Source: Acidobacteriota bacterium (GTDB taxonomy: Bacteria > Acidobacteriota > UBA6911 > JACQTF01). From it: a DNA stretch of 60,913 nucleotides. A program made the position numbers and the translations under genes. Positions 7,701 to 60,913 of the stretch are shown here, in pieces. Numbering within the stretch: the stretch's first letter is position 1; each line of letters begins with the position of its first letter. A model generated the notes under the pieces. That model made no database searches. It was given only the letters and a program-made list of their open reading frames with translations, and was not told the origin of the DNA. The stretch spans positions 1-60,913 of the forward strand of contig JACQTF010000179.1 in NCBI GenBank assembly GCA_016210925.1, given 5' to 3'.

Positions 7701-7856
7701 CTTAATCATCACGGCAACCCCCGGAAGAACGGCGTCTGTCTCATCCTTTGCTGCTCCAGAGATGGTCGCCGCTGCCACCTGCGCCAGAACCATTTGGTTG
7801 GAAAAAGATAGGCCAAGCAAGACCACAGGATAATAGAATGATTTCTTGAACATCAT
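4725..7856 (-). CDS. TonB-dependent receptor with CarboxypepD_reg-like N-terminal domain
   Basis: 1043 aa with a signal peptide. N-terminal ISGAAKDETDAVLPGVAVMIKN...YEVKAELPGF. Plug and barrel regions present. C-terminus is TSRQIQFGLKFAF. Confidence 0.9.
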   Translation of the reverse strand: MMFKKSFYYPVVLLGLSFSNQMVLAQVAAATISGAAKDETDAVLPGVAVMIKNLDTGITRTAITDDQGRYHAPNLALGNYEVKAELPGFQAAIRRGIELTVGRHAVVDMVLKVGEVTEQVVVTEEAPLVETSTSAVSSLIDQATMRELALNGRDLTQLALLTPGVTLSQFSTTANVALGAGKRMSIGGSRPQATSFLLDETDINAMANTTPGSSAGVQLGVDTIREFKIVTNPFSAEYGRTSAGVVTYVTRSGTNELHGSAFEFLRNSALDAKNFFDQPTQPIPPFKRNQFGATAGGPVQRNRTFFFASYEALIERLGLSNVATVPGAAVRQGADPAVRPYVALYPLPNSRTFPDGTGEFLSSPGQAIDEHYFMGRVDRQFGDSDSFFGRYVFDDATLTRPDRVGLTKQSLDSRNQYFTLQETRIITGSALNTFRFALNRSLLSDFDVGVHKDTSLLRFTGIPGAIGSVSVGGLTALGGDVLRPRIFVTNMFQYSDDLVLHRGGHSMRLGANVERLQYNIRTEFQAGGSYAFQSLQEFLTNRPRSVSGQLPGSSTTRSVRQMLLGLFLQDDYRVRENFTLNLGLRYEFITVPGETHGRISQLEDPFNPLVRPSDFVVGGRLFENPGLKNFAPRIGLAWDPFQKGKTVIRAGFGIFYEHLFSHYARTALTQNPPLLLSTTITSVLGPVVFPNFAANNLVASGQPGIDGFVFRPDQPYVSRYGLNIQQQVLPSVVLQIGYSGAHSIHLPHHLGINHPVHQILPDGRRFYPFPPVLRNPNFSTMRVKVTDGIAKYHALEVSLSKRPVQRLRFQASYTFSKVLDDGASVAGNRDFSNDNAVPRCLFCPKDVGPAPFSVKHNFVANYTYDLPFGPQRAWGGKSSGTVAKLMGDWQVSGITTVASGYPFSVYLGFIPPNFVFGPSDQTFYPDLVPGRSNNPVLGGPDRYYDPAAFSPSRSGFIGNLGRNTIRGPGFVNFDFSLVKKTGLGEKKTVEFRAEFFNLFNTPNFGLPVQDLFLPSGAVRGNAGRITGTVNTSRQIQFGLKFAF

Positions 7857-7894
7857 CGCCTCTCTTTTTAGGAATTCGAAAGTAAATTCAGGTT

Positions 7895-10800
7895 CTAAAA
7901 CAGGAACTTCAGCCCAAACTGGATCTGGCGGGCGGTGGTGATGGTGCTGGTGATTCTACCCGACGTGGCAATCCTGGTAGCTTGGGGAGTGAAAAGGTTC
8001 AAAACCGCGGGAATATCGAAGTTGGCGCGGTTCAACAAGTTGAAAAATTCCGCGCGGAATTGAACGTTCTTGCTTTCAGCGATCCTGTTGTTTTTGACCA
8101 ACGAAAAGTCGAAGCTGGCCAGCCCGGGGCTGATGATCGTGTTTCTGCCCAGGTTGCCGTGAAACCCTGCCGCGGGGAGCTCGAAAGCTGTCGGATCGAA
8201 ATAGCCATTGGGGTCCCCGAGAACCGGGTTGTTGTCGCGCCCGGAGACCAGGTTCGGCCGGTCCATCAGCGACGGACCGGTGGCCCGATTGCGGGAACGG
8301 TTAAAACCGATCCTCACCGTAAAAGGCACGCCGGTGGAGAGCTTCGCAATTCCGTTGAGCTGCCACCCTCCCAGGAGCCTCCTGGCCACGCCGGCGAGGC
8401 CGGGCGCCGGCAGGTCGTAGGTGTAGTTGAACGAGAAGTTGTGCCGCAGGTCGAAGCTGGAAAGGCCGCGGCTACTTTTGTGGTCTTCCGGAAAGACCGG
8501 ATAGTCCACGGCGCCCCTGTTATCGACCGAACCTAGAACTCCCGAGCCATCATCGACGGAGTGGGAGTACGTGTAGGAAGCCTGGAACTGGAAGCCGCGG
8601 CCCGAACGGCGATTCACGCTGAACTGAAGCGAATTGTAGAAGGAACTCGCGTCGGTTCTGCGATTGCGGACGATGGCAAAGCGCGGGTTGCGCCGGGTCG
8701 CGGTCGCCGGGAAAAAGAACCTCTCCACCCCGCTCCGATCAGGAAGGATCTGGGGTATGGCGGTGTTCTCGTCCACCACCCGCAGCAACTTCACCCCGTG
8801 GGAACCCACGTAGCCGACGGTGAACACAGTCTCAGGGAAAACCTCCCTTTGGAGAACCAGATTGTATTGCAGCATGTAAGGATTCTGAGGCCTGAACGGC
8901 AAAGCCTGCACGTCATCTTGAATCCTCACCGTACCTCCTTCGAGAGGACGCGGCCAGGGAGGAAAATCGATGGCAAAGGACTTGTGAAACGGCGGCGACA
9001 GGAAACCAGCCGGCCGCACGTACTGGGTCCAGACCTGCTCGTGAAAGACGCCGAAGCCCCCTCGGAGGGAGGTCCGGCCGTTCTTCCACGGATCCCACGC
9101 GAACCCGATGCGCGGACCAAAATTGCGAAGCGAAGGATTGAGAAACATCGGATCGCCCAGCGTGGGCGCCGGGTCCATGACATCCCGCAGGTTGGCCACT
9201 TTCCCGTTGACTTCCGTCGGGATGGTAATGAACTCGTACCGGATACCCAGGTTCCAGGTGAAGTGCGATTTCCACTTGAAATCATCCTGAAAGTAAAAGC
9301 CGAACATGCTTTGGCGCCAACCGCGGTCTAAATCGACATCGGGCAGCCGTCCCTGAAGAAGCGCGGGCTGCCCAAGCAAGAAGTCGCGTAAGCTGCGGAA
9401 CGTGTAGAAACCGCCGGGTCGCTGATCGGCGAAACCGTTCAGTCGAACTCGCTTGATGTGGACGCCCGACTTGATCGAGTGGGATCCTTTCGCATAGGTG
9501 AGGTTGTCCGCATATTCGAAAAGGTTCGTCAGGTACATTTGGGGAAACAAGGACCCTTTGCCCGTCCCGGTGAACTCTGAGGAATCGATATTCCCGAAGG
9601 GCTGGCCGGGTATAAAGATCAGCGCCGGGTCCGCGTTGAAGTTCTGAAGATTATCCGACAAGGGCTTCGACCGATTGAAATTGAAGCGGAAAGTATTCAG
9701 AAGCGTGGACGAGAAGATCCGTTTTTCCTCCAGCGTCAGGTACTGGTTGCGGTGCAAATGAAGCGCTGAAAATAAGCCCAAAGCCGTCGGCACGATCTGC
9801 GAGGAGTCGTCAAACGTGTAGCGAGCAAAGAAGGAGTCCGAGGGGGACCATTGATGATCCACTTTGATCAAGAAATAATCTTCATCGGTCCTTTGGCTCT
9901 CGGATTTTATGAACTCACCGACGCCACCCCCGAGATCCTGGACGCCGCTGGGCAGAGGGTACAGGGAGAGATAGGGCACCACCGTGGGATTCACCGTCAC
10001 GGTCCCGGTGGGCAGAATGCCCCGCCGGGCCGACGCATTAGGGACAAAAGCTCTGGTGGTGATTCCCAGCCTCTCCCGCAGTCCTTCATAGCTTCCTAAG
10101 AAAATCGTTTGATCCCTGATGATTGGCCCGCCTGCAACAAATCCGAATTGATTTCTCTTGAACGGCGGCGGATCCGCTCCGACATCGAAAAAGTTTCGAG
10201 CGTCCAGGGCGCTGTTGCGGAGGAACTCGAAGACGGTTCCATGCAGTTCGTTGGTACCGGATTTGGTAACCGCATTGATCACGCCTCCGGAGGCGTTCCC
10301 CATTTCCGCGCTGAAATTGTTAATTTTCACCTCAAATTCCCTGATCGTCTCCACCCCCAAAAGGACTCCTGCGGCGCTCCCGGGGGTCTTTTGAAAGACG
10401 TCCATGATATCGCCGCTGTCGATGAGAAACTTGCTGGACTCCGGGCGCGCGCCGGAAATGGATACTTTCTGCATGGGAGTGCCGCCGGGCCCGCCTCCTC
10501 CCGCCCGATGGAAGGTGACGCCGGTTTGAAGAAAAGCGAGTTCGTGAAAGCTGCGGCCATTCAGCGGCAAATCGCGAATTTTTTTGTCATCCACCAAAGC
10601 CGCAAAGGCCGAGCTGGTCGTCTCGACCATGGAGGCTTCCCCTGTGACCACCACTCTCTCCGTGATTTCGCCCACCTTCAGCGTGAAATCCACAATGGCT
10701 TCTCGTCCGATCGTGAGGTTCAACCCACTTCGGACACCTGTCTGAAACCCGGCCAACTCGGCCTGCACTTCGTACTGACCGACTGCCAGATCGGGTGCAC

Positions 10801-11011
10801 GATACCTGCCCCGATCATCTGTGACGATCGTCCTCGTGATCTCGGTCGCCAGATTCTTGATCACGACAGTGACCGCAGGTAACACGGCACCCGTCTCATC
10901 CCTAATGGTCCCAGAGATGGTTGCCGTGGTGACTTGAGCCCAAGCCGCCTGGCTACAAACAGTGAGTGCCAACAAAAGTGCAAAAAGGTGAAATCGCTTT
11001 TTAGGCATCAT
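7895..11011 (-). CDS. TonB-dependent receptor with CarboxypepD_reg-like N-terminal domain
   Basis: Paralogue of 4725..7856. I trimmed the start to the ATG-ATG (11011/11008) after GGAGG, giving MMPKKRFHLFALLLALTVCSQAAWAQ. C-terminus is ARQIQFGLKFLF. Confidence 0.9.
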   Translation of the reverse strand: MMPKKRFHLFALLLALTVCSQAAWAQVTTATISGTIRDETGAVLPAVTVVIKNLATEITRTIVTDDRGRYRAPDLAVGQYEVQAELAGFQTGVRSGLNLTIGREAIVDFTLKVGEITERVVVTGEASMVETTSSAFAALVDDKKIRDLPLNGRSFHELAFLQTGVTFHRAGGGGPGGTPMQKVSISGARPESSKFLIDSGDIMDVFQKTPGSAAGVLLGVETIREFEVKINNFSAEMGNASGGVINAVTKSGTNELHGTVFEFLRNSALDARNFFDVGADPPPFKRNQFGFVAGGPIIRDQTIFLGSYEGLRERLGITTRAFVPNASARRGILPTGTVTVNPTVVPYLSLYPLPSGVQDLGGGVGEFIKSESQRTDEDYFLIKVDHQWSPSDSFFARYTFDDSSQIVPTALGLFSALHLHRNQYLTLEEKRIFSSTLLNTFRFNFNRSKPLSDNLQNFNADPALIFIPGQPFGNIDSSEFTGTGKGSLFPQMYLTNLFEYADNLTYAKGSHSIKSGVHIKRVRLNGFADQRPGGFYTFRSLRDFLLGQPALLQGRLPDVDLDRGWRQSMFGFYFQDDFKWKSHFTWNLGIRYEFITIPTEVNGKVANLRDVMDPAPTLGDPMFLNPSLRNFGPRIGFAWDPWKNGRTSLRGGFGVFHEQVWTQYVRPAGFLSPPFHKSFAIDFPPWPRPLEGGTVRIQDDVQALPFRPQNPYMLQYNLVLQREVFPETVFTVGYVGSHGVKLLRVVDENTAIPQILPDRSGVERFFFPATATRRNPRFAIVRNRRTDASSFYNSLQFSVNRRSGRGFQFQASYTYSHSVDDGSGVLGSVDNRGAVDYPVFPEDHKSSRGLSSFDLRHNFSFNYTYDLPAPGLAGVARRLLGGWQLNGIAKLSTGVPFTVRIGFNRSRNRATGPSLMDRPNLVSGRDNNPVLGDPNGYFDPTAFELPAAGFHGNLGRNTIISPGLASFDFSLVKNNRIAESKNVQFRAEFFNLLNRANFDIPAVLNLFTPQATRIATSGRITSTITTARQIQFGLKFLF

Positions 11012-11662
11012 GACCTCCACGCGCTGGACGGTCGACAGTCTCACAGCTCTCGGAGCCTCCAGAGGCCGCTGCCTCCTTACGGGACCGTCGCGTCCACCAT
11101 GTCCGGCCTGGCACGGTCATCCGCGTCCCAGGGGCGGGGACTCCTGGGCGGGCCCACCGGCTGAAGTCCCAATTCCTCTGCCTTGAAATAACGCCGGGCA
11201 CCCGGGTCGTCATTGCGAATTGCCACTCATAGATCCTCCTCTGGGGGCCCGGCACCGGCCGCGGGTCCAGGTACGGGATCAGCTGGCGCTATTGGTATCC
11301 CAGCCAAAACACTTTGTCAAGTGGATAGAAATCCTTGCCCACCCCCAGTAAAAGGAGGAGAATTCATCGGGCTTGAGATAGAGATGAGAAGGCCAGTCTC
11401 CCCGCAGTACCAGGTAAACTGGTCTGCAAAATTTTAATGAGCCGAGCTCTAAGGCTCAATCGACAAAGGAGACAGGCCACGACCAACTATAGCAGCAAGA
11501 CGGCGGATACAACAGTCGGTTTGGATTTAGCAACGCAGGGCGTTGACGCCACCTTCCACGTGCCCGAGATTTTCGATCCGAAGGCCACGGAGGGTCCCGA
11601 CGCAACCGTCCGAACGCCACCCTCGCGGAGGAGGCACCGGCAGCCCTGATGCACCCCCTGTC

Positions 11663-36191: not shown

Positions 36192-36346
36192 GGCCGTCGC
36201 CGAGGTGTTACGCTACCCTGCTCGGCTCGCCTCTTTACTTGCTTTTCTTGCGTGCGCTGGTCCATCATCTTAGAGGTAAAATGCGTCTGACTGTCGCTCT
36301 CGGAGCGATGAGCGATGGTCTGAAAAGGTTTCTTTGGGAGGATTCT

Positions 36347-39300
36347 ATGAACAGGCGGCTCAGTGGTCTACTCATTTTCATCGAGTTCATCCTGGTTCTT
36401 TGTTCCGTGTCCTCCATGCTCTTCGCCCAGAGGACGACTGGGACCATCTCAGGGGTGGTCAAGGACGAAAGCGGAGCCGTCGTGCCGGGCGCCGGGGTGG
36501 TGGTGAAGAATACGGAGACCGGCGCCGTGCGGTCCACGGTGAGCAATGACGAAGGCGCCTACGCCGCTCCCAACCTCGCCCCCGGCAGTTATGAAGTCTC
36601 GGCGGAAGTGCCCGGCTTCAAGACCTCCATTCGCAGAGGCATCAAGCTCAGCGTGGGCGGGTCCGCAGTCGTGGACATCACCTTGAACCTGGGCGAGATC
36701 ACGGAAGAAGTCGTCATCACCAGCGAGGCGCCTCTCGTCGAAACCACCACCTCGGGACTCTCGGGCCTGGTGGAGAGCCAGCAGATTCGAGATCTCCCCC
36801 TCAACGGCCGCGATTTTATTCAGCTCAGCACGTTGCACGAGGGAGTGGTCAGCGTACGCACGGGCGACAGCAACCAGAGCCGAGGTTTTGGCACCAAGCT
36901 CTCGATTGGGGGCGCCCGCCCCAGCCAGAACCGGTTCCTCCTCGATGGCAGCGACATCAACGATACCGCCGGTGCCACACCCGGCAGTGCCGCTGGCGTG
37001 ATGCTGGGCGTGGACACCCTCCGAGAGTTCCGGGTGCTGACCAATGCTTACTCCGCCGAGTTCGGCAAGAGCGCCGGCGGTGCCATCATCGCAGTGACCA
37101 AATCCGGCACCAACGAGTATCACGGAACGATTTTTGAATTTTTGCGCAATGACAATCTCGACGCCCGAAATTTCTTCGACCGGGGTCCTGCCCCGGAGTT
37201 CAAGCGAAACCAGTTCGGCTTTTCCTTCGGGGGACCGATTCTGAAGGAGAAAACCTTCTTCTTCGGATCCTATGAAGGCCTGCGCGAGCGTCTGGGAGTC
37301 ACCCGAATCGCCCGCGTTCCCGATGTGAGCGTGCGTACCAGCGCCGGGATCAGCCCTGTCATCCTTCCCTATCTCAACCTGTACCCCCTGCCGAATGGAC
37401 GGGCCTTCGGCGGGGGCATCGCCGAATTCCTCAGCTCCGCATCGGACGCCACTGATGAAGACTTCGCGGCTCTCCGGATCGACCACCGATTCAGCGGCGC
37501 CGACAGCCTCTTCGGGAGGTACTCTTTCGACGATGCTTCCCGGAACAGTCCGAACCCCTTACAGCTTTTTACCGGGAGTCAGACCAGCCGGTACCACTAT
37601 CTCACGATCGAAGAGACCCACATCTTCTCTCCACGGTTACTGAACACGGCGCGCTTCGCCTATAACACCACGCGGACCGGAGATGTCAGCATCACCCTCA
37701 AAGAGATCGACCGGTCCCTGTTTTTCGTCCCCTCACACCCTCAGTTTGGAGGCATCGCGGTGGCAGGGTTGACAGAGCTATCCGGCGGAGCAGCCGGGTT
37801 TCAACCGCGCATCTTCAACAACGTCAACGTCGATACGCTGGAGGCCGTCACCTACGACCGAGGTTCACATTCCTTGAAGATGGGTCTGGGCGTGACGCGC
37901 TACCACAACAACAATAATGCCCCCTTCCGGCCCGGAGGGCGCTTCCAATTTGATTCCCTGCAGGATCTGCTTCAGGCCCGGGCCAGCCAGCTCGAGTCCA
38001 TGGTGCCCGGCGTATCGGATACGGTGCGCCGGTGGCGCCAGTGGCTCGTCGGCATGTACCTTCAGGATGATTGGAAAGCCACACCTCATCTCACGTTCAA
38101 TCTGGGCCTGCGCTATGAGTTCATCACGGTCCCCGAGGAAGCGGACGGCAAGAGCGCCAACTTGCGGAACGTTCCTTTCAGCAAGGAAAGCACGGTGGGA
38201 CCTCCCTTCAAGAATCCTTCCTTGAGAAATTTTGCCCCCCGGGTGGGCGTCGCCTGGGCTCCGGGCGACGATGGGACGCTGGCCATCCGGGCCGGCGTGG
38301 GCGTCTTTTACGACCAGATTCTGTCCCAATACATGATTTTGGCCGGAAGCCGGGTGCCGCCTTTCTGGCTTCAGGCCAATCCCAGGAATCCGTCTTTCCC
38401 TGACTACATCAGAACTGTTTCGATCAGAGACGTGGATCCCAGGGTGGATACTCTTCCTTACGACATTGACCAGCCCTACCGCATCCAATACAACCTCTCC
38501 ATCGAGAAGCAGATCTCCCGCAACCTGGCCGTCCATACGGCGTACGTGGGCTCCCGGGGCGTTCACTTGCCGAGAGCCGTCGCCGACGCGAATGCAAATG
38601 TGCCCCAAGGCTTTCTTGACGGGCGGCTCTTTTGGCCGGCAACGCGGAGCCGGCTCAATCCGGTCTGGAGCACCATCCGATATCGTCCCACGGATGGAAA
38701 TTCCTTTTATCACTCCTGGGTGGCAGGTCTGACAAAAAGATTCAGTGGCGGGCTCCAATTTCAGGCGAGCTATACGTTCGGAAGAAGCGTCGATGACAGC
38801 TCCGCCGTCTTTAACGAAAATGAATTCACCAACACCATACCGGTCGCCAACATTTTTGACCGCACCGCGGAGAGAGGACTTTCCGACTTCCACGTCGCGC
38901 ACAACTTTGTCGCCAACTATCTCTGGGAACTGCCGTTCGGCCGGGACCGTAAATGGGGCCATCAGCTTTCCGGCGCGCCTGCCTGGTTCATCTCCGGATG
39001 GCAAATCTCGGGCATCTTGAACCTGTCCTCCGGGACTCCTTTCACGCCCGTTCTAAGCTTTGACCGGGCCAGGGCGGGCGCCGGTCGCGGCGGCGGCGGG
39101 CAGCGGCCTGATCTGGTCTCCGGGTCCAATAACCCCGTCCTGGGAGGGCCGGATCGCTACTTCGATGCTTCCGGGTTTGCCCTCCCGCCGGTCGGCGTTC
39201 TCGGCAACCTGGGAAGGAACACGGTGATGGGCCCGGGACTGGCGAGCTTCGACTTCAGCTTGTTCAAGAACTCCCGAGTGGGAGAAAATAAGAATCTTCA

Positions 39301-39469
39301 GTTCCGTGCCGAAATGTTCAACGTGTTCAACCGGGCCAACTTCACCATTCCCGCCGAGGCGGCGCGACAGGTATTTTCCGCCACCGGGCCCATCGCCGGC
39401 GCGGGGCGGATCACCGGTACCTTGACCACCTCGCGACAGATTCAGTTCGGACTGAAGTTCATTTTTTAA
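36347..39469 (+). CDS. TonB-dependent receptor with CarboxypepD_reg-like N-terminal domain
   Basis: Start trimmed to ATG 36347, 5 nt after GGAGG (MNRRLSGLLIFIEFILVLCSVSSMLFAQ). C-terminus is TSRQIQFGLKFIF. Confidence 0.9.
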   Translation: MNRRLSGLLIFIEFILVLCSVSSMLFAQRTTGTISGVVKDESGAVVPGAGVVVKNTETGAVRSTVSNDEGAYAAPNLAPGSYEVSAEVPGFKTSIRRGIKLSVGGSAVVDITLNLGEITEEVVITSEAPLVETTTSGLSGLVESQQIRDLPLNGRDFIQLSTLHEGVVSVRTGDSNQSRGFGTKLSIGGARPSQNRFLLDGSDINDTAGATPGSAAGVMLGVDTLREFRVLTNAYSAEFGKSAGGAIIAVTKSGTNEYHGTIFEFLRNDNLDARNFFDRGPAPEFKRNQFGFSFGGPILKEKTFFFGSYEGLRERLGVTRIARVPDVSVRTSAGISPVILPYLNLYPLPNGRAFGGGIAEFLSSASDATDEDFAALRIDHRFSGADSLFGRYSFDDASRNSPNPLQLFTGSQTSRYHYLTIEETHIFSPRLLNTARFAYNTTRTGDVSITLKEIDRSLFFVPSHPQFGGIAVAGLTELSGGAAGFQPRIFNNVNVDTLEAVTYDRGSHSLKMGLGVTRYHNNNNAPFRPGGRFQFDSLQDLLQARASQLESMVPGVSDTVRRWRQWLVGMYLQDDWKATPHLTFNLGLRYEFITVPEEADGKSANLRNVPFSKESTVGPPFKNPSLRNFAPRVGVAWAPGDDGTLAIRAGVGVFYDQILSQYMILAGSRVPPFWLQANPRNPSFPDYIRTVSIRDVDPRVDTLPYDIDQPYRIQYNLSIEKQISRNLAVHTAYVGSRGVHLPRAVADANANVPQGFLDGRLFWPATRSRLNPVWSTIRYRPTDGNSFYHSWVAGLTKRFSGGLQFQASYTFGRSVDDSSAVFNENEFTNTIPVANIFDRTAERGLSDFHVAHNFVANYLWELPFGRDRKWGHQLSGAPAWFISGWQISGILNLSSGTPFTPVLSFDRARAGAGRGGGGQRPDLVSGSNNPVLGGPDRYFDASGFALPPVGVLGNLGRNTVMGPGLASFDFSLFKNSRVGENKNLQFRAEMFNVFNRANFTIPAEAARQVFSATGPIAGAGRITGTLTTSRQIQFGLKFIF

Positions 39470-48961: not shown

Positions 48962-49168
48962 CTAAGAACCGTCTTCAGTGGTGAGATATCTTTGAATGTC
49001 AGACACCAGCGAGGCGAGATCCAAGTTCTTCTTCGAAGCAACTGCTTCGAGGGTTTGATCCCCGGCGCATCATATGTCTGGCACGCGGCGGAGAAGGAAG
49101 CGCGTGACCTCCGGTTTGAGGGAGAGCAACTGGCGGACTGTCATTCCACGGATTTGTTCCGCAGTCAT
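48962..49168 (-). CDS. DUF1858-like small redox protein with in-frame TGA (candidate selenoprotein, U-C dyad)
   Basis: MTAEQIRGMTVRQLLSLKPEVTRFLLRRVPDI-TGA-CAGDQTLEAVASKKNLDLASLVSDIQRYLTTEDGS. The TGA is at 49070..49072, where family members carry the Cys-containing motif before ETLEEAA. A hairpin follows 19 nt downstream. Confidence 0.45.
49033..49050 (-). promoter_or_regulatory. SECIS-like hairpin downstream of the DUF1858-like TGA
   Basis: RNA UCGAAGC-AGUU-GCUUCGA has a perfect 7-bp stem and a loop containing GU. It starts 19 nt after the UGA. A possible GAUC/GAUC lower stem flanks it. Confidence 0.4.
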
Positions 49169-49198
49169 CGGCGCAGATCCTCCACTCCGTCCACTCCC

Positions 49199-49330
49199 CT
49201 ACAGCGTAATGACCTGATCCACACCCACCTTGCCCAGCGCCGCGTAAAGATCGGGAAAACAGCCGATTTGTGCCCCATCAATGAGATTCTTATCTATTTC
49301 TCGCTCGTAAGCGCACTGGTCACAAGCCAT
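49199..49330 (-). CDS. 43-codon CxxC mini-ORF with glutaredoxin-like ends
   Basis: MACDQCAYEREIDKNLIDGAQIGCFPDLYAALGKVGVDQVITL. CDQC and LIDGAQIGCFPDLYAAL resemble the Grx CPYC and FIxGxxIGGxDDLxAL motifs, but the middle is missing. Overlaps the IscU-like stop by 11 nt. Confidence 0.3.
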   Translation of the reverse strand: MACDQCAYEREIDKNLIDGAQIGCFPDLYAALGKVGVDQVITL

Positions 49331-49637
49331 AGCAGTGCATCTTCTCGGGCGGAATCGTGCCGAGAGCGTCGGAAAGCTCTTGCTCCGTCACGGACAGAGC
49401 ATCTTCCACGTCCTTGCCTTGGACCATTTCCGTGAGCGCGCTGGAACACGCCACGGAGGTGATGCAACCCTGTGTTTTGAATTTCACCTCCTGAATCCGG
49501 CCGTCTTCCACGCTCAAGGTGAGGAGGATGCGGATACTCCAGGGATTGTCTTGCTCCAGGTAAGAGCGGTTGGGCTGATCGACAACTCCAAGATTGCGTG
49601 GATGATGGAAATGGTCCAAAACGGGGCTGCGGAACAT
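49320..49637 (-). CDS. IscU/NifU N-terminal-like protein (atypical, first Cys ligand absent)
   Basis: MFRSPVLDHFHHPRNLGVV..., FKTQGCITSVACSSALTEMVQGK and PPEKMHC match IscU motifs. The NPxCGD motif reads NPWSIR. Confidence 0.7.
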   Translation of the reverse strand: MFRSPVLDHFHHPRNLGVVDQPNRSYLEQDNPWSIRILLTLSVEDGRIQEVKFKTQGCITSVACSSALTEMVQGKDVEDALSVTEQELSDALGTIPPEKMHCYGL

Positions 49638-49719: not shown

Positions 49720-50196
49720 TCACCGTTTCGGAATCTTGAATTCCGCCACCTTCAGTTCAAGCGGATCGCCGGAATCATCGATGGTGCCAAGGATCCAGAT
49801 CGGATGGCCCGAGGGGACCTTTGGAGAATCTACCAGGAGAAGCTTATCCTTGCCGGCAACGAAGAATCGCTTCGATCCCTCTTCCTGGACACGCCCGCGG
49901 GCGGCAATTTGGAACCGGACAATCTCAACCTCCGCTCTTGCCACGGCAGCGCGAATGTCCTCCGGTTGGAAGCTGGTTCCCGGCTCATAGGTGATCTGCA
50001 CGGTCTGCTTTTGCAGGCTAATGGAAACATCGGCGACACCGTCCAGGCGTCGTAGGGCGACCTCCATGATCGCCGCGCAGGCCGCTCAGGTGATTCCTCT
50101 TGCATCGGCCAGCACCCTTTCCACCTGAGCCAGTGCCGGTGTGCTCGCCGCCGGTGCCAGTAGGGCCAGAAGTAACAACCGCGTCAGGCGCTTCAT
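49720..50196 (-). CDS. periplasmic HMA/MerP-like protein with TGA at the first Cys of the CxxC metal site (candidate selenoprotein)
   Basis: ATG 50196: MKRLTRLLLLALLAPAASTPALAQVERVLADARGIT-TGA-AACAAIMEVALRRLDGVADVSISLQKQTVQITYEPG... The TGA is at 50086..50088. The ORF track sees only 49720..50067. Confidence 0.7.
50056..50074 (-). promoter_or_regulatory. SECIS-like hairpin downstream of the HMA-protein TGA
   Basis: RNA GGCGAU-CAUGGAG-GUCGCC has a 6-bp stem (one G-U pair) and a 7-nt loop with GG. It starts 11 nt after the UGA. Confidence 0.4.
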
Positions 50197-50233: not shown

Positions 50234-50554
50234 TTAACGATAGCGGAACCAAAGCGTCATCCACGCGCTGAGAACCAACAGGTTTACCCCAATGCTCGCC
50301 CCCAGAATTGCCTTCATGCCCCTGGTCCGAAGAGAGGGAGGACGGCGATAGACGAGCGAACCCTGGTAGGCGAGTGCGCCCAGCGCTACCCCGATAAACA
50401 CCGGCTGCAAACGTTCCAGCCAGAAGAGGCAAGTGACGTTGAGGAGCGAAAAGAGGCCAAGTCCTGCCAGGACTTGCGGAAGCACTCATCAGCTCGGCGT
50501 GAGGAGGGCAGCCGCAATCGCCAGCAGTCCCATGCGTTTCGGATCCGATTTCAT
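50234..50554 (-). CDS. MerT-like membrane protein with tandem in-frame TGA-TGA at the vicinal Cys-Cys position (candidate di-selenocysteine protein)
   Basis: ATG 50554: MKSDPKRMGLLAIAAALLTPS-TGA-TGA-VLPQVLAGLGLFSLL...LERLQPVFIGVALGALAYQGSLVYRR... TGA codons are at 50489..50491 and 50486..50488. The ORF track sees only 50234..50485. Confidence 0.7.
50458..50476 (-). promoter_or_regulatory. SECIS-like hairpin downstream of the MerT-like TGA-TGA
   Basis: RNA CAAGUCC-UGGCA-GGACUUG has a perfect 7-bp stem and a 5-nt loop containing GG. It starts 9 nt after the second UGA. Confidence 0.5.
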
Positions 50555-50594
50555 GTGACCCGACTACCACTATACGGACCGGCCACTCCACCTG

Positions 50595-52106
50595 TCAAGG
50601 CTGGTTACGCTGGTTGACCATCCGGAACGCGGCTTTTACCCGGGGAACGACGAAGGGTAGAAGGATCAGAACGAGCGCCGAGAGGAGAAAGGCGCCCGAG
50701 AGGGGGCGCCAGAGAAAGATCATCAGGCTTCCCCGGGAGAGCAGGAGGGACTGCCGGAGGGATTCCTCCGCCATGCGGCCCAGGACGAAAGCCAGCAGGA
50801 GGGGGACCGGGTCGTACTGGAACTTTTTCATGAGGTAGCCCACCACGCCGAAGGCCAGCATGGTGATGATGTCCCAGATGTTGCCCGACACGCTGTAAGC
50901 GCCGATGACGCAAAACAGCAGGATCAACGGGAAAAGAATGCCGTAGGGAACCTTGAGGAGCTGGACCCATAGTCCGATCAGGGGGAGGTTCAGGACCAGG
51001 AGCATGGCGTTGCCGACGTACATGCTGGTGATGACGCCCCAGAAGATCTCCGGATGCTCCTTCATCAAGAGGGGGCCCGGCTGAACCCCGTGAACCAGAA
51101 AGGCTCCCAGCAGCACGGCCATGACCACGTTGGGGGGAATGCCCAGGGTCAGCAGCGGGATCATGGATCCTGCCGTGGCGGCGTTGTTGGCCGATTCCGG
51201 CCCGGCGACTCCCTCGATGGCGCCCGCGCCGAACTTCTCGGGGTGTTTGGAGATGCGCCGCTCGACCCCGTAGGAGATGAAGGACGGGATGATCGTGCCC
51301 ATCCCGGGGAGGATTCCCAGAAAGAAGCCCAACAGGCTTCCCCGGGCGACGGGGCCGGCGGAATCCTTCCAGTCCTGCCGGGTGGGCAGCAGGCCTTTGA
51401 TCCGGGTCTCGAAGACTCCCTGCTGGAGGCCTTGCTCGATGTTGAGGAGGACCTCTGCGACGCCGAACAGGCCCATGATGAGAGGCACCAGCCCCAACCC
51501 GTCCATCAGCGTGACACTGCGGAACGTGAAGCGCGGTGTGCCCACGATGGGGTCCAGCCCGACGGTGCCCAGAAACAACCCCAGAATGGCCATGGCCGCG
51601 GCCTTGAGCTTCGAGCCGCGCGCCAGGAAGGTCACCATGGTGAAACCCAGTATCAGGAGGCCGAAGATCTCCGGAGGCCCGAATCGGAGGGCGATGGAGG
51701 CGAGGGGAGGCGCCAGCAACATGATTCCCACCACGCCGAAGGTCCCGGCGATGAAGGAGCCGAAGGCTGCAATCCCAAGGGCCGGGCCCGCCCGGCCCCG
51801 GCGCGCCATCTGGTGACCATCCAGACACGTCACGACGGAAGCAGCCTCGCCGGGGACGTTGACCAGGATGGAGGTGGTGGAACCTCCGTACATGGCCCCG
51901 TAGTAGATGCCCGCCAGCATGATGAGGGAGGTGGTGGCGCTCATCGTGTAGGTGACCGGAAAGAGGAGGGACATGGTCACCACAGACCCGATGCCGGGCA
52001 GGACGCCCACCAGCGTTCCGATCAAGACGCCCGCGAAGCACGCCGCCAGGTTGGTAGGCTCTAGGCTCACGGAAAAGCCGTAAAGTACGCTCTGGACGAG
52101 GTCCAT
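50595..52106 (-). CDS. tctA: tripartite tricarboxylate transporter large permease TctA
   Basis: About 500-aa polytopic protein, [20 protein letters not shown]... Start trimmed to ATG 52106, downstream of the tctB stop. The same-strand overlapping 478-aa ORF is an artefact. Confidence 0.9.
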
Positions 52107-59706: not shown

Positions 59707-60913
59707 TCAGAACAGCAGCTTGAGCCCAAATTGGATTTGCCGCGAAGTACCGGCCGTTTGGGTAATTATTCCTGCCGCGGAAAGTGGGCTCTCGACATCC
59801 TGACGACCTGCGTAAACGCTTCGCTGGGGGGCGCTAAAATTCGGCCGGTTCAGGATGTTGAAGAATTCCCCACGGAACTCCAGCTTGCCACTCTCGCCCA
59901 GGAACTTCAGCGGAGTATCCTTTGCCAGCGAGAAGTCGAAACTGGCGAAACCAGGGGCTCGGAGAATGTTCCGACCTGCCGTCCCCAAAAATCCAGCGGG
60001 TTGGATTGCAAAGGCACACGGATCAAAATACAGCTCTGGCCCGCCCAACTTGCGGCCTGCTGGGACTCCTAAGCAGCCGGAGGTAACGCCTCGGGTGATG
60101 TTATCGTTGTGGCGACCGGCTACCAAATCTGGCCGGTCAGCTTGCGCCCCCGCCACTCTCGAGCGGGAGCGATTGGTCGTGAGGTTCGGGGTAAATGGAT
60201 AACCAGTATTCGTACTCAGAATGCCGCTCACCCACCAGCCGTTTAACAGCGTGCCTGGAGCGCCGCTTCGCGAAACTCCCGGCAAGCGATAGATTGCATT
60301 GAACCGCCAGTTGTGGCGGATGTCGAAGCCAGCCGGTCCCTTATCCACCTTGCGGTTGGTCGGATCGGTGCCCGTGTTCTGGTCAGCGGTGTCGTCGCTT
60401 CCGAGCTGACCTTGTGTTTCATCAATTATTTTCGACCATGTGTAGGAACTCTGAAATTGCAGTCCGTGGCTCAAACGCTTGACCAGACCCCACTGCAACG
60501 AGTTGTACCAGGAGTTTCCTGCTGCTGTTTTGAGTTCCATTGTGTCCCAGTTAGGATTGGTCCGCGATTCGCGACCGGTCCAGAACTGCCGGCCATCCGG
60601 AAGGATCTCCGGCACGGTGGGGTTTCCTTCTTTGGTTTGAATGATATTGAGGCCACGAGAACCTGCGTAAGCGACCGTCGAAACCATATTGAAGGGCAAC
60701 TGCCGCTCCACCGTCAGGTTGTACTGGAGCAAGTGAGGCTGCTGGAGGCCATAGTCTATGAGGCGAATCGATTTACCGACAGCCCCCGATGGGAATACGA
60801 GTGGGAGAGTCAACCCCGGAGGGCTCACCACCGTGCTGAGGCTAGCGAAGGGCGGCATGCCATTGGCGACCACAAGGAAAGAACTGCCGAGGTTACCAAG
60901 GTCATACAGCAGG
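59707..60913 (-). CDS. TonB-dependent receptor, C-terminal part (gene continues beyond the right edge)
   Basis: The C-terminus TSRQIQFGLKLLF and barrel motifs align with the other TBDRs. The frame stays open to the window end. Confidence 0.85.
   Translation of the reverse strand, partial: LLYDLGNLGSSFLVVANGMPPFASLSTVVSPPGLTLPLVFPSGAVGKSIRLIDYGLQQPHLLQYNLTVERQLPFNMVSTVAYAGSRGLNIIQTKEGNPTVPEILPDGRQFWTGRESRTNPNWDTMELKTAAGNSWYNSLQWGLVKRLSHGLQFQSSYTWSKIIDETQGQLGSDDTADQNTGTDPTNRKVDKGPAGFDIRHNWRFNAIYRLPGVSRSGAPGTLLNGWWVSGILSTNTGYPFTPNLTTNRSRSRVAGAQADRPDLVAGRHNDNITRGVTSGCLGVPAGRKLGGPELYFDPCAFAIQPAGFLGTAGRNILRAPGFASFDFSLAKDTPLKFLGESGKLEFRGEFFNILNRPNFSAPQRSVYAGRQDVESPLSAAGIITQTAGTSRQIQFGLKLLF

What the first reader, a model, noticed from the sequence alone, without database searches (positions are those of the whole stretch)
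48962..49168. DUF1858-like small redox protein with in-frame TGA immediately before a Cys (U-C dyad)
Seen in sequence: the minus-strand frame from ATG 49168 reads MTAEQIRGMTVRQLLSLKPEVTRFLLRRVPDI, then TGA (49070..49072), then CAGDQTLEAVASKKNLDLASLVSDIQRYLTTEDGS and a TAG stop.
From memory, the DUF1858 / hybrid-cluster-protein-associated redox disulfide domain reads I..dMtI.evl...Pe...vf...GmhC.gCp......etLeeAa..hgidl..ll..Ln.
Both flanks of the TGA match that pattern, and the TGA-TGC pair sits where the Cys motif is expected.
Nineteen nt downstream is a perfect 7-bp hairpin, UCGAAGC-AGUU-GCUUCGA, with GU in the loop.
No ORF in the supplied track covers this frame. This is the third TGA-at-a-redox-Cys case within 1.6 kb.
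Basis: partly seen in the sequence, partly recalled or inferred. Interest (0 to 1): 0.65.

Follow-up and report, generated by a model that had tools for sequence, protein, structure and literature searches.

The report
New Sec-Cys selenoprotein, ScdA_N fold
The in-frame TGA is real and almost certainly encodes selenocysteine in a 68-residue protein of an apparently undescribed Acidobacteria family. In this family selenium replaces the first cysteine of the unexplained Cys-Cys motif known from iron-sulfur repair proteins (ScdA/YtfE).

Summary
ATG 49168 to TAG 48962 on the minus strand reads as one 68-codon frame, with TGA (49072..49070) directly before TGC and a perfect 7-bp hairpin 19 nt downstream.

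Thirteen related loci from metagenomes and Acidobacteriota MAGs are 41-61% identical. Twelve carry intact reading frames with TGA at this column. The thirteenth, L016, also keeps the TGA but is a pseudogene. One full-length homologue has Cys there and one has Leu.

Both flanks evolve as coding sequence in this frame (pN/pS 0.33 upstream, 0.43 downstream). The hairpin UCGARGC-RGUY-GCYUCGA is kept in all loci, with a compensatory change at two synonymous sites. Protein databases hold only N-terminal stubs ending "...PDI".

By sequence and predicted fold the protein is a stand-alone ScdA_N/DUF1858-type helical domain. It is closer to ScdA_N (PF04405) than to DUF1858, and below threshold for both. 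The U-C pair aligns with the DfCCgG motif of YtfE/ScdA.

It is the last gene of a conserved five-gene cassette: merT-like (UU), periplasmic HMA (UxxC), NifU_N-like, DsrE/SaoD-like, and this gene.

I infer a selenol/thiol hand-off role for a thiophilic cargo; this is not shown. In this window the neighbouring NifU and DsrE genes carry a deletion.

The parts
48962..49168 (-). Selenoprotein gene of 68 codons including UGA, plus the TAG stop. It encodes a stand-alone ScdA_N/DUF1858-fold domain with Sec33-Cys34.
   Evidence: Frame read. Twelve intact homologous loci with TGA at the same column, plus pseudogene L016. Purifying selection on both sides of the TGA. AF2 pLDDT 87.9. Best fold matches are the YtfE N-domain (TMq 0.77) and 2k5e (TMq 0.69).
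49070..49072 (-). In-frame UGA read as selenocysteine (U33). It aligns with the first Cys of the DfCCgG motif of ScdA/YtfE.
   Evidence: TGA in every Sec-form locus; TGC in L002/P0003; TTA in L003/P0002. Alignment to S. aureus ScdA 'DFCCGG'. TGA is also the commonest ordinary stop in the window (13 of 27), so the code is not reassigned.
49067..49069 (-). TGC, the invariant Cys34 that partners Sec in the U-C dyad.
   Evidence: Invariant in all 11 aligned members.
49033..49050 (-). SECIS-type hairpin with a 7-bp stem and an AGUU loop, 19 nt after the UGA. It overlaps the codons for L-E-A-V-A-S.
   Evidence: 98.7% of cells are paired across 11 loci. Pair 30-39 is GC 5 / AU 4 / GU 2, at two synonymous third positions. 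No conserved lower stem.
49178..49183 (-). Shine-Dalgarno-like GGAGGA, 9 nt before the ATG.
   Evidence: Read from the sequence. The start position gives 32-35 residues before the Sec column in all loci.
49199..49330 (-). Remnant (last 43 codons) of the DsrE/SaoD-like gene that precedes this gene in relatives. It keeps the CDQC motif and the third Cys.
   Evidence: NCBIfam NF040732 SaoD positions 68-110 of 110, E=1.4e-19. Full 112-aa genes in L004-L006, L009-L011, L013-L015 and a partial one in L002.
49320..49637 (-). NifU_N-like gene, truncated after 'MHCYGL' by the same deletion. The first Cys ligand is absent across the whole subfamily.
   Evidence: Pfam NifU_N E=3.3e-27. Comparison with 134-aa relatives. 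The junction is also present in an independent run.
49720..50196 (-). Periplasmic HMA/MerP-like selenoprotein gene, with TGA at 50088..50086 (GIT-U-AAC).
   Evidence: Pfam HMA E=2.3e-9. NCBIfam UxxU_metal_bind 45 bits, below cut-off. TGA conserved in L004, L006, L016. Hairpin 11 nt after the UGA.
50234..50554 (-). MerT-like membrane protein gene with tandem TGA-TGA at 50491..50486 (TPS-U-U-VLPQ).
   Evidence: Pfam MerT E=3.8e-6, below cut-off. TGATGA conserved in L004, L006, L016. Hairpin at 50476..50458.
50569..50598 (-). Sigma-70-like promoter TTGACA-18-TATAGT (11 of 12 matches) directly upstream of the merT-like gene. It is the likely start of the five-gene transcript.
   Evidence: This is a consensus match only.

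Best explanation
**Shown.** 48962..49168(-) is one gene. Its UGA at 49072..49070 is conserved as UGA across a small Acidobacteriota protein family. It sits between two stretches that evolve as one reading frame. A conserved 7-bp hairpin with an RGUY loop follows 19 nt downstream. A Cys-containing full-length homologue exists.

This is the standard signature of a bacterial selenoprotein gene. SelB carrying Sec-tRNA(Sec) binds the hairpin (SECIS) and inserts selenocysteine at the UGA.

The product is a 68-residue cytoplasmic, all-helical, stand-alone ScdA_N/DUF1858-fold domain. Sec33-Cys34 lies in the loop between helix 19-28 and helix 40-47. This is the position of the DfCCgG dyad of YtfE/ScdA.

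It is the last gene of a self-contained five-gene cassette:
- a merT-like gene with a Sec-Sec pair,
- a secreted HMA/MerP-like gene with Sec-x-x-Cys,
- a NifU_N-like gene with a Cys-Cys pair,
- a DsrE/SaoD-like gene with CxxC,
- this gene.

**Inferred, at about 0.4.** The Sec-Cys dyad is a fast-exchanging selenolate/thiolate ligand pair. It would take a thiophilic cargo from the MerP-like/MerT-like import pair, whose transporter lacks MerT's cytoplasmic Cys pair. The cargo would be a soft metal or metalloid ion, or a sulfur/selenium species. The dyad would then pass it to the NifU-like and DsrE-like proteins.

**Caveat for this window.** A deletion of about 390 nt has truncated the NifU-like gene and removed two thirds of the DsrE-like gene. 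The gene is intact here, but its pathway may be impaired in this organism.
For: - **TGA column.** All 9 metagenome loci (codons) and 3 intact MAG loci have TGA at the same column, at 41-60% identity. L016 (61%) also has TGA there but is a pseudogene. P0003 has Cys there and P0002 has Leu.
- **Coding signal.** pN/pS is 0.33 upstream and 0.43 downstream in frame. It is above 1.2 in the other two frames.
- **Truncated database entries.** Ten further database clusters are N-terminal stubs. Nine end exactly at '...PDI'; the tenth is the frameshifted L016 product.
- **Hairpin.** It is present in all loci. The Glu GAA/GAG and Ala GCU/GCC third positions co-vary. Given the peptide LEAVASK and window codon usage, full pairing is expected in only 12% of sequences.
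- **Standard genetic code.** TGA is the commonest ordinary stop in the window.
- **Family and fold.** ScdA_N hits in 10 of 11 members. NCBIfam RIC models span the TGA. Alignment to ScdA 'DFCCGG'. AF2 pLDDT 87.9. TMq 0.77 to YtfE 5fnn_A.
- **Synteny.** The cassette is conserved while its flanks differ between loci.
- **Neighbouring selenoprotein genes.** Two other genes in the operon have conserved TGAs and downstream hairpins.
- **Sequence is not an assembly error.** It is reproduced in independent groundwater runs.
Against: - No selA, selB, selC or selD lies in the 60.9-kb window, and no tRNA was found. The rest of the genome could not be searched.
- There is no transcript or protein evidence.
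- No Rfam family matches the hairpin.
- The UGA-to-hairpin spacing of 19 nt is longer than in E. coli fdhF (from memory, about 11 nt).
- The hairpin is also kept in the Cys and Leu forms, and its sequence is partly forced by the conserved peptide LEAVAS.
- The operon is eroded in this window. The closest relative, L016, has this gene as a pseudogene.
- The window copy differs at two positions that are otherwise nearly invariant (D16S, R22T).
- The cargo and the direction of transfer are inference from gene neighbours only.
Confidence: 0.85

Rival explanations
1. The gene is a true selenoprotein gene by descent, but in this organism it is a relic that still looks intact. The cytoplasmic half of the cassette is being lost, and the product no longer has working partners.
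For: In the window the NifU-like gene is truncated and the DsrE-like gene is reduced to 43 codons, also in an independent run. The closest relative, L016, has a NifU nonsense codon (GAA to TAA), no DsrE gene, and this gene broken by a 7-nt duplication plus a TAG. Its merT-like and HMA genes keep their TGAs. The window protein is the second most divergent of the 11 aligned members (mean 51% identity; only the Leu-form L003 is lower) and departs at two nearly invariant positions.
Against: The frame, the UGA, Cys34, the start codon with its SD, and the hairpin with a Watson-Crick A-U at the co-varying pair are all intact. Its divergence from L004/L006 (55-62%) matches that of the HMA protein (55-59%), so there is no gene-specific acceleration. 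The DsrE remnant keeps all three conserved Cys and has its own ATG overlapping the NifU stop.
Confidence: 0.15
2. The protein is a redox enzyme or cofactor rather than a cargo carrier. Sec33-Cys34 would cycle between a selenenylsulfide and a selenol/thiol, as the vicinal Cys-Sec pair of thioredoxin reductase does. It would supply or accept electrons for Fe-S or persulfide chemistry on the NifU-like and DsrE-like proteins.
For: Most bacterial selenoproteins use Sec as a redox-active residue (reviews PMC9312934, PMC13188914). The CC pair of ScdA/YtfE is redox-active and forms disulfides (PMC9268430, PMC12412097). The immediate neighbours are NifU_N-like and DsrE-like. YtfE interacts with IscU and IscS (PMC9268430).
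Against: The cassette contains no reductase or electron donor. The other two selenoproteins of the operon are metal-transport types, MerT-like and HMA. Vicinal CC/CU/UU motifs in MerT, HgcA and SAO proteins are read as metal ligands (bioRxiv 10.1101/2022.07.06.499078).
Confidence: 0.3
3. The hairpin is only a by-product of the conserved peptide TLEAVASK and is not the SECIS. Sec insertion, if it happens, relies on another element.
For: Random synonymous coding of LEAVASK gives full pairing in 12% of cases and at least 6 of 7 pairs in 44%. The Cys form (L002) and the Leu form (L003) keep the hairpin. No conserved lower stem was found. No Rfam hit.
Against: Ten of 11 distinct sequences are fully paired, while synonymous sites elsewhere in the gene are about 57% diverged. 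Variation inside the stem is compensatory, including the double synonymous change in L003. The loop always shows G-U at its centre. From memory, this is the SelB contact in the E. coli and Moorella SECIS. No other conserved structure lies within 70 nt of the UGA.
Confidence: 0.08
4. The TGA is an ordinary stop or a nonsense mutation. Only a 32-residue peptide is made, or nothing, and the downstream frame is not translated.
For: Automatic gene calls stop there. There is no direct expression evidence.
Against: TGA is conserved at one column in 12 intact divergent loci. The downstream 26 codons are under purifying selection in the same frame. Full-length Cys and Leu homologues exist.
Confidence: 0.02

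Closest known systems
ScdA_N domain (Pfam PF04405/DUF542) of RIC proteins: E. coli YtfE and S. aureus ScdA
   Same: It has the same small helical fold (TMq 0.77, rmsd 2.4 A over 62 columns to 5fnn_A). It gives the best sequence matches. The U-C dyad and the following Gly align with the DfCCgG loop motif between two helices (PMC9268430).
   Different: It is stand-alone at 59-88 residues (59-79 for complete ORFs), with no hemerythrin-like di-iron domain. Sec replaces the first Cys. It scores below the Pfam cut-off (26.7 against 32.5 bits). It sits in a merT/HMA/NifU/DsrE cassette rather than in a nitrosative-stress regulon.
DUF1858 domain-containing selenoprotein (PF08984, CxxU motif, WP_012065717.1), listed in PMC9312934 and PMC13188914
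   Same: It is a small stand-alone helical domain of the same fold superfamily. The fold match to 2k5e/GSU1278 has TMq 0.69; from memory this is a DUF1858 protein, not verified here. It is also a selenoprotein, with Sec in the equivalent loop.
   Different: The motif here is U-C (vicinal), not CxxU, and Sec is the first residue of the pair rather than the last. The DUF1858 model does not hit the window protein and hits only 3 of 11 relatives at E>=0.007. The lineage differs: every locus that carries an organism title is an Acidobacteriota MAG.
Mercury transport pair MerP/MerT with hand-off to cytoplasmic Cys pairs (mer operon), and the MerT-family selenoproteins noted by Haft and Gwadz (bioRxiv 10.1101/2022.07.06.499078)
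   Same: The operon begins with a MerT-like membrane protein carrying a vicinal pair in its first helix, followed by a secreted HMA protein with a GMTCxxC-type motif. Thiolate or selenolate ligand exchange is the accepted MerP-to-MerT-to-MerA mechanism (established knowledge).
   Different: There is no MerA, MerB or MerR. The MerT-like protein has U-U instead of C-C and lacks the cytoplasmic Cys pair. The cytoplasmic partners are NifU-like, DsrE-like and ScdA_N-like. Scores are below the MerT and MerP family cut-offs.
SAO system of Clostridia (SaoD and partners; Haft and Gwadz 2022)
   Same: The neighbour is a SaoD/DsrE-related protein with the invariant CxxC plus Cys. Several selenoproteins with vicinal Cys/Sec motifs sit in one metal-related locus.
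   Different: None of the other Sao components is present. The SaoD model scores 70 bits against a cut-off of 169. The phylum and gene set differ. The paper mentions no ScdA_N-like member.
C-terminal Gly-Cys-Sec-Gly redox centre of mammalian thioredoxin reductase
   Same: It is a vicinal Cys/Sec pair able in principle to form an eight-membered selenenylsulfide ring (established knowledge).
   Different: The order is reversed (Sec-Cys). The pair is internal in a loop of a small helical domain, not on a flexible C-terminal tail of a flavoenzyme. There is no evidence here for redox cycling.

Membership tests
Bacterial selenoprotein gene (UGA recoded by SelB/SECIS) | An in-frame UGA flanked on both sides by sequence conserved as one reading frame | tested here: met
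   Twelve intact loci with TGA at the same column. pN/pS is 0.33 upstream and 0.43 downstream, and above 1.2 in the other frames.
Bacterial selenoprotein gene (UGA recoded by SelB/SECIS) | Homologues with Cys at the UGA column | tested here: met
   P0003/L002 reads PDI-C-CRGG with TGC. P0002/L003 has Leu (TTA). Only these two full-length non-Sec forms were found among 1.84 billion representatives.
Bacterial selenoprotein gene (UGA recoded by SelB/SECIS) | A stem-loop shortly 3' of the UGA with G(U) in the apical loop (bacterial SECIS) | tested here: met
   A 7-bp stem and RGUY loop 19 nt after the UGA in all loci, 98.7% paired, with one compensatory pair. SelB binding itself was not tested.
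Bacterial selenoprotein gene (UGA recoded by SelB/SECIS) | selA, selB, selC (tRNA-Sec) and selD present in the same genome | not testable with these tools
   None lies in the window. The rest of the genome is not available. Two further conserved TGA-at-Cys genes with hairpins in the operon argue indirectly for a Sec-decoding host.
Pfam ScdA_N (PF04405 / DUF542) | Score at or above the gathering threshold (32.5 bits) | tested here: not met
   26.7 bits, E=4.2e-6, for residues 31-59. Ten of 11 relatives hit, all below threshold.
Pfam ScdA_N (PF04405 / DUF542) | DfCCgG motif in the loop between two helices of a small helical domain | tested here: met
   D-I-U-C-A-G aligns with D-F-C-C-G-G of S. 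aureus ScdA. The loop is residues 29-39, between H19-28 and H40-47, in the AF2 model. The fold matches the YtfE N-domain. The first Cys is Sec.
RIC / YtfE / ScdA di-iron proteins | A C-terminal hemerythrin-like four-helix di-iron domain | tested here: not met
   The protein ends after 68 residues. NCBIfam RIC models align only to their first ~60 positions, at 16-21 bits against cut-offs above 200.
Pfam DUF1858 (PF08984) and its CxxU selenoprotein subfamily | A match to the DUF1858 model and a CxxC/CxxU motif | tested here: not met
   No hit for the window protein at E<=10. Three of 11 relatives hit at E>=0.007. The motif is U-C-A-G, with no Cys or Sec at +3.
SAO system (Haft and Gwadz 2022) | A nine-gene sao neighbourhood (SaoL, SaoT, SaoE, SaoC, SaoX, SaoB, SaoP, SaoA, SaoD) | tested here: not met
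   Only a SaoD-related remnant is present, below cut-off. The neighbours are MerT-like, HMA and NifU_N-like.

The most novel reading that the evidence does not exclude
The five-gene cassette is a previously unrecognised selenium-dependent trafficking pathway of Acidobacteriota. A thiophilic cargo would be bound by a periplasmic Sec-x-x-Cys HMA protein and pass a membrane protein with a tandem Sec-Sec site. The Sec-Cys dyad of this ScdA_N-like protein would collect it for delivery to IscU-type and DsrE-type proteins. If so, the long-unexplained DfCCgG motif of RIC/YtfE/ScdA proteins is a cargo hand-off site towards Fe-S scaffolds, not a mere dimerisation disulfide.
Probability: 0.25. Interest if true: 0.75.

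Novelty: new member of a known kind. Interest (0 to 1): 0.6.

Why it matters
The mechanism, UGA recoding by a SECIS hairpin, is textbook. The family appears undescribed:
- No NCBIfam model names it.
- Database entries are unnamed stubs cut at the UGA.
- The 2022 and 2026 reviews of prokaryotic selenoproteins list a DUF1858 CxxU family but nothing with ScdA_N/PF04405.

Sec forms greatly outnumber Cys forms here, which is unusual for bacterial selenoprotein families.

Sec generally marks a residue that does chemistry. Its placement on the first Cys of the DfCCgG motif therefore points to a function for a motif that two decades of work on YtfE/ScdA have left unexplained (PMC9268430, PMC12412097).

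Practical consequence: gene callers mis-annotate all three selenoprotein genes of this cassette.

The cassette also offers a compact system with Sec-Sec, Sec-x-x-Cys and Sec-Cys sites for studying why selenium is chosen for metal or chalcogen handling.

Tried and rejected
- The word-index protein search with the U-to-C protein found nothing.
An X at position 33 was accepted.
- The first genome-contig scan found nothing, because its patterns came from only three sequences. A second scan with 11 sequences found four MAG loci.
- Rfam gave no SECIS or other match at gathering threshold, or at E<=10 apart from one chance snoRNA hit.
- No tRNA lies in the window.
- No RNA-seq run holds the region.

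**Ideas rejected**
- P0001 (1519 aa, E=2.6e-16) is a spurious match of a repetitive protein to 'DQTLEAYAG' and was discarded.
- An extended lower SECIS stem, seen in the single-sequence fold, is not conserved.
- Membership of DUF1858 is rejected.
- A reassigned genetic code is rejected, because TGA is the commonest true stop.
- An in-frame NifU-DsrE fusion protein at the deletion junction is rejected. The two frames differ, and the same junction is seen in a second sample.
- Flanking genes gave no clue to the cargo. They differ in every locus: Tct and TAXI-TRAP transporters here; a RecN-like ATPase, a helicase with siroheme synthase, and a zinc ribbon protein with RNase H elsewhere.
Full report
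**1. The observation**

The minus-strand frame from ATG 49168 reads MTAEQIRGMTVRQLLSLKPEVTRFLLRRVPDI. It continues with TGA (49072..49070), TGC, then AGDQTLEAVASKKNLDLASLVSDIQRYLTTEDGS and TAG (48964..48962). A GGAGGA sits 9 nt before the ATG.

The hairpin UCGAAGC-AGUU-GCUUCGA occupies 49050..49033, 19 nt after the TGA. Perfect 7-bp hairpins occur 0.66 times per strand-kb in this window. One in the right place has a prior of about 1%.

Mechanical ORF listing shows only the 32-aa stub. The gene call on an identical Logan contig does the same.

**2. Is the TGA conserved?**

A word-index search found nothing. A full HMMER scan of 1.84 billion representative proteins, with X at position 33, found only two true homologues:
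- P0003 (59 aa) reads ...PDI-C-CRGGDTLEAVASKK...
- P0002 (79 aa) reads ...PDL-L-CRGGQTLEAVASLK...

Both span the two halves of the window frame.

Scanning metagenome contigs with conserved peptide patterns gave nine loci, L004-L012 (L012 duplicates L011), at 41-60% identity. Every one has a stop at the same column, and in each the stop is TGA.

A second scan of GTDB species representatives gave four Acidobacteria/Terriglobia MAG loci. Three have TGA at the column in an intact frame. The fourth, L016, also keeps the TGA but is a pseudogene.

A profile search of the 5.8-billion-protein collection returned ten more clusters. Nine are N-terminal fragments ending exactly at '...PDI', the signature of selenoproteins truncated by gene callers. 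The tenth (P0011) is the frameshifted L016 product.

TGA is also the commonest ordinary stop of long ORFs in the window (13 of 27), so the code is standard.

**3. Coding signal on both sides**

Over ten loci, the 22 codons before the TGA have pS 0.57 and pN 0.19 (ratio 0.33). The 26 codons after it have pS 0.59 and pN 0.25 (ratio 0.43). The same nucleotides read in the other two frames give ratios of 1.2-2.6.

The distance from the start codon to the Sec column is 32-35 codons everywhere.

**4. The hairpin**

All loci have UCGARGC-RGUY-GCYUCGA at the same distance, without indels. Of 77 pair cells, 98.7% are standard pairs.

Pair 30-39 is G-C in five sequences, A-U in four and G-U in two. It is formed by the third positions of a Glu codon (GAA/GAG) and an Ala codon (GCU/GCC), both synonymous.

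In the Leu form, L003, a second pair is kept by CUC to CUG and UCG to UCC, again both synonymous.

RNAalifold finds only this helix as conserved, with no lower stem.

The hairpin overlaps the invariant peptide LEAVAS. With window codon usage, that peptide alone would give full pairing in 12% of random synonymous codings. Part of the structure therefore comes free with the protein, but not its retention in every locus against about 57% synonymous divergence elsewhere.

The loop centre G-U is the first two bases of the Val codon. From memory, G-U in the apical loop is the SelB contact in the E. coli fdhF and Moorella SECIS. From memory also, the distance of 27 nt from the UGA to the loop G lies within the bSECISearch range of 16-37 nt. 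Rfam has no model that matches.

**5. What the protein is**

- Pfam ScdA_N (DUF542) matches residues 31-59 with E=4.2e-6 but below threshold. DUF1858 does not match.
- NCBIfam RIC/YtfE models align residues 14-62, across the TGA, to their first ~60 positions.
- Ten of 11 family members hit ScdA_N. Three hit DUF1858 weakly.
- A family profile finds S. aureus ScdA as the best PDB sequence match. It aligns D-I-U-C with D-F-C-C.
- AlphaFold2 with a three-sequence alignment gives pLDDT 87.9 and five helices, with residues 29-39 as a loop.
- Foldseek places the model on the N-terminal domain of E. coli YtfE (5fnn_A, TMq 0.77, rmsd 2.4 A, 62 columns). It also matches the 73-residue GSU1278 NMR structure 2k5e (TMq 0.69).

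The protein is therefore a stand-alone domain of the ScdA_N/DUF1858 fold. Sec takes the place of the first Cys of the DfCCgG motif.

The role of that motif in RIC proteins is unresolved. It is redox-active and mediates disulfide-linked oligomers. It is not needed for the di-iron site or for nitrite reduction (PMC9268430; PMC12412097).

**6. Context**

On the minus strand, a near-consensus sigma-70 promoter (50598..50569) precedes five genes:
- A MerT-like gene (50554..50234) with tandem TGA-TGA in its first helix, TPS-U-U-VLPQVLAGLG.
- A signal-peptide HMA/MerP-like gene (50196..49720) with GIT-U-AAC.
- A NifU_N-like gene (49637..49320).
- A DsrE/SaoD-like remnant (49330..49199).
- The gene in question.

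The full five-gene order, with the same TGAs, is found in L004 and L006/L013. The NifU-DsrE-ScdA_N part is found in L009, L010, L011 and L015. DsrE followed by ScdA_N is found in L002, L005 and L014. The genes flanking the cassette differ in every locus, so it is a self-contained module.

Both other selenoprotein genes have hairpins 11-15 nt after their UGA.

Every cytoplasmic member carries a close Cys/Sec pair: NifU-like 'MYCC', DsrE-like 'CDQC', and this protein 'UC'. The MerT-like protein lacks the cytoplasmic Cys pair of classical MerT.

**7. State of the cassette in this window**

Relatives have a 134-aa NifU-like protein and a 112-aa DsrE-like protein. The window's NifU stops at MHCYGL. 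The DsrE-like frame begins, out of frame, at the codons for MACDQC. About 390 nt are missing. An independent sample assembles the same junction, so it is genomic.

The closest relative, L016, shows further decay:
- NifU has GAA changed to TAA.
- The DsrE gene is absent.
- The ScdA_N-like gene has a 7-nt duplication and a TAG.
- Its merT-like UU and HMA U genes are intact.

The L016 stub is seen on three contigs.

The window's own ScdA_N-like gene is intact. Its divergence matches that of the HMA gene. Whether its product still has a job here is nevertheless uncertain.

**8. Mechanism**

Shown: this is a conserved UGA-containing gene with a SECIS-type hairpin, encoding an ScdA_N-fold protein, in a conserved cassette with two other UGA-containing metal-handling genes.

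Inferred:
- SelB-dependent Sec insertion.
- A cytoplasmic location, because the sequence has no signal peptide or hydrophobic segment.
- A role of the Sec-Cys pair as an exchange-labile ligand pair. It would take a thiophilic cargo from the Sec-Sec site of the transporter and pass it to the NifU-like and DsrE-like proteins.

The main functional rival is a selenenylsulfide redox role. The cargo is unknown.

**9. Comparison and novelty**

The closest described entities are:
- the ScdA_N domain of RIC proteins;
- the DUF1858 CxxU selenoprotein listed in reviews;
- MerT-family and UxxU metal-binding selenoproteins;
- the SAO system.

This family fails the thresholds of all their models. It has a different motif (U-C). 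It is not in the review tables.

A 2026 survey of groundwater MAGs (Deng et al., cited in PMC13188914) reports novel candidate selenoproteins that I could not inspect. It may already include this family.

I rate it a new member of a known kind, namely a new bacterial selenoprotein family.

Noticed in passing
window 50234..50554 (-), TGA-TGA at 50491..50486; also L004, L006/L013, L016: A MerT-like membrane protein has two adjacent in-frame TGA codons (TPS-U-U-VLPQVLAGLG) where MerT has its Cys-Cys pair. The pair is conserved in four lineages at 65-75% identity. A hairpin CAAGUCCUGGCAGGACUUG begins 15 nt after the first UGA. The MerT selenoproteins mentioned in the literature are CU or C/SxxU forms. 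I found no mention of a tandem Sec-Sec site in a bacterial transporter in the papers read.
   Followed up: partly
window 49720..50196 (-), TGA at 50088..50086: A secreted HMA/MerP-like protein carries GIT-U-AAC and a C-terminal extension of about 70 residues of unknown family. It is nearest to NCBIfam NF041115 'UxxU metal-binding (seleno)protein' but far below its cut-off (45 against 95 bits). The TGA and a hairpin 11 nt downstream are conserved in L004, L006 and L016.
   Followed up: partly
window 49199..49637 (-), junction near 49330: A deletion of about 390 nt joins a truncated NifU_N-like gene (ending MHCYGL*) to the last 43 codons of a DsrE/SaoD-like gene, out of frame. The remnant keeps the CDQC motif, the third Cys and an ATG overlapping the NifU stop. 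The same junction is assembled from an independent groundwater sample.
   Followed up: yes
window 49320..49637 (-); L004, L006, L009-L011, L015: This NifU_N subfamily lacks the first cluster-ligand Cys and the following Asp (NPW[SHRL]IR instead of NPxCGD). In most members it has a Cys-Cys pair at the last ligand position (KMYCC). It is therefore probably not a conventional [2Fe-2S] scaffold.
   Followed up: no
L016 5723..7200 (Terriglobia MAG CBDCTS010000007.1): In the closest relative the cytoplasmic half of the cassette is decayed: NifU has GAA changed to TAA, DsrE is absent, and the ScdA_N-like gene has a 7-nt duplication plus a TAG. The merT-like (UU) and HMA (U) genes stay intact. This suggests the two halves can be selected separately.
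   Followed up: partly
stop codons of the ScdA_N-like genes: window 48962..48964; L002, L004-L006, L008-L011: The true terminator is TAG in 9 of 11 loci, although the C-terminal tails differ in length and sequence. TGA is the commonest stop in the window (13 of 27; TAG 7 of 27). No conserved sequence follows the stop. This is unexplained.
   Followed up: partly
L003 121..176 (Leu form, P0002): The homologue with TTA (Leu) at the Sec column still keeps the hairpin through two synonymous compensatory changes. A near relative, P0012, is truncated at PDI and so still has TGA. Either the loss of Sec is recent or the hairpin has a second role.
   Followed up: no
window 50569..50598 (-): A near-consensus sigma-70 promoter (TTGACA, 18 nt, TATAGT) lies in the 40-nt gap between the tctA stop and the merT-like start.
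   Followed up: no
window 4725..11044, 36239..39469, 59707..60873: Several large CarboxypepD_reg + OMP_b-brl_4 (TonB-dependent-like) outer-membrane proteins are present. There are also amidohydrolases, a UbiD-like decarboxylase, a molybdopterin oxidoreductase and TctCBA/TAXI-TRAP/ABC transporters. This is consistent with an Acidobacteriota genome from groundwater (runs).
   Followed up: partly
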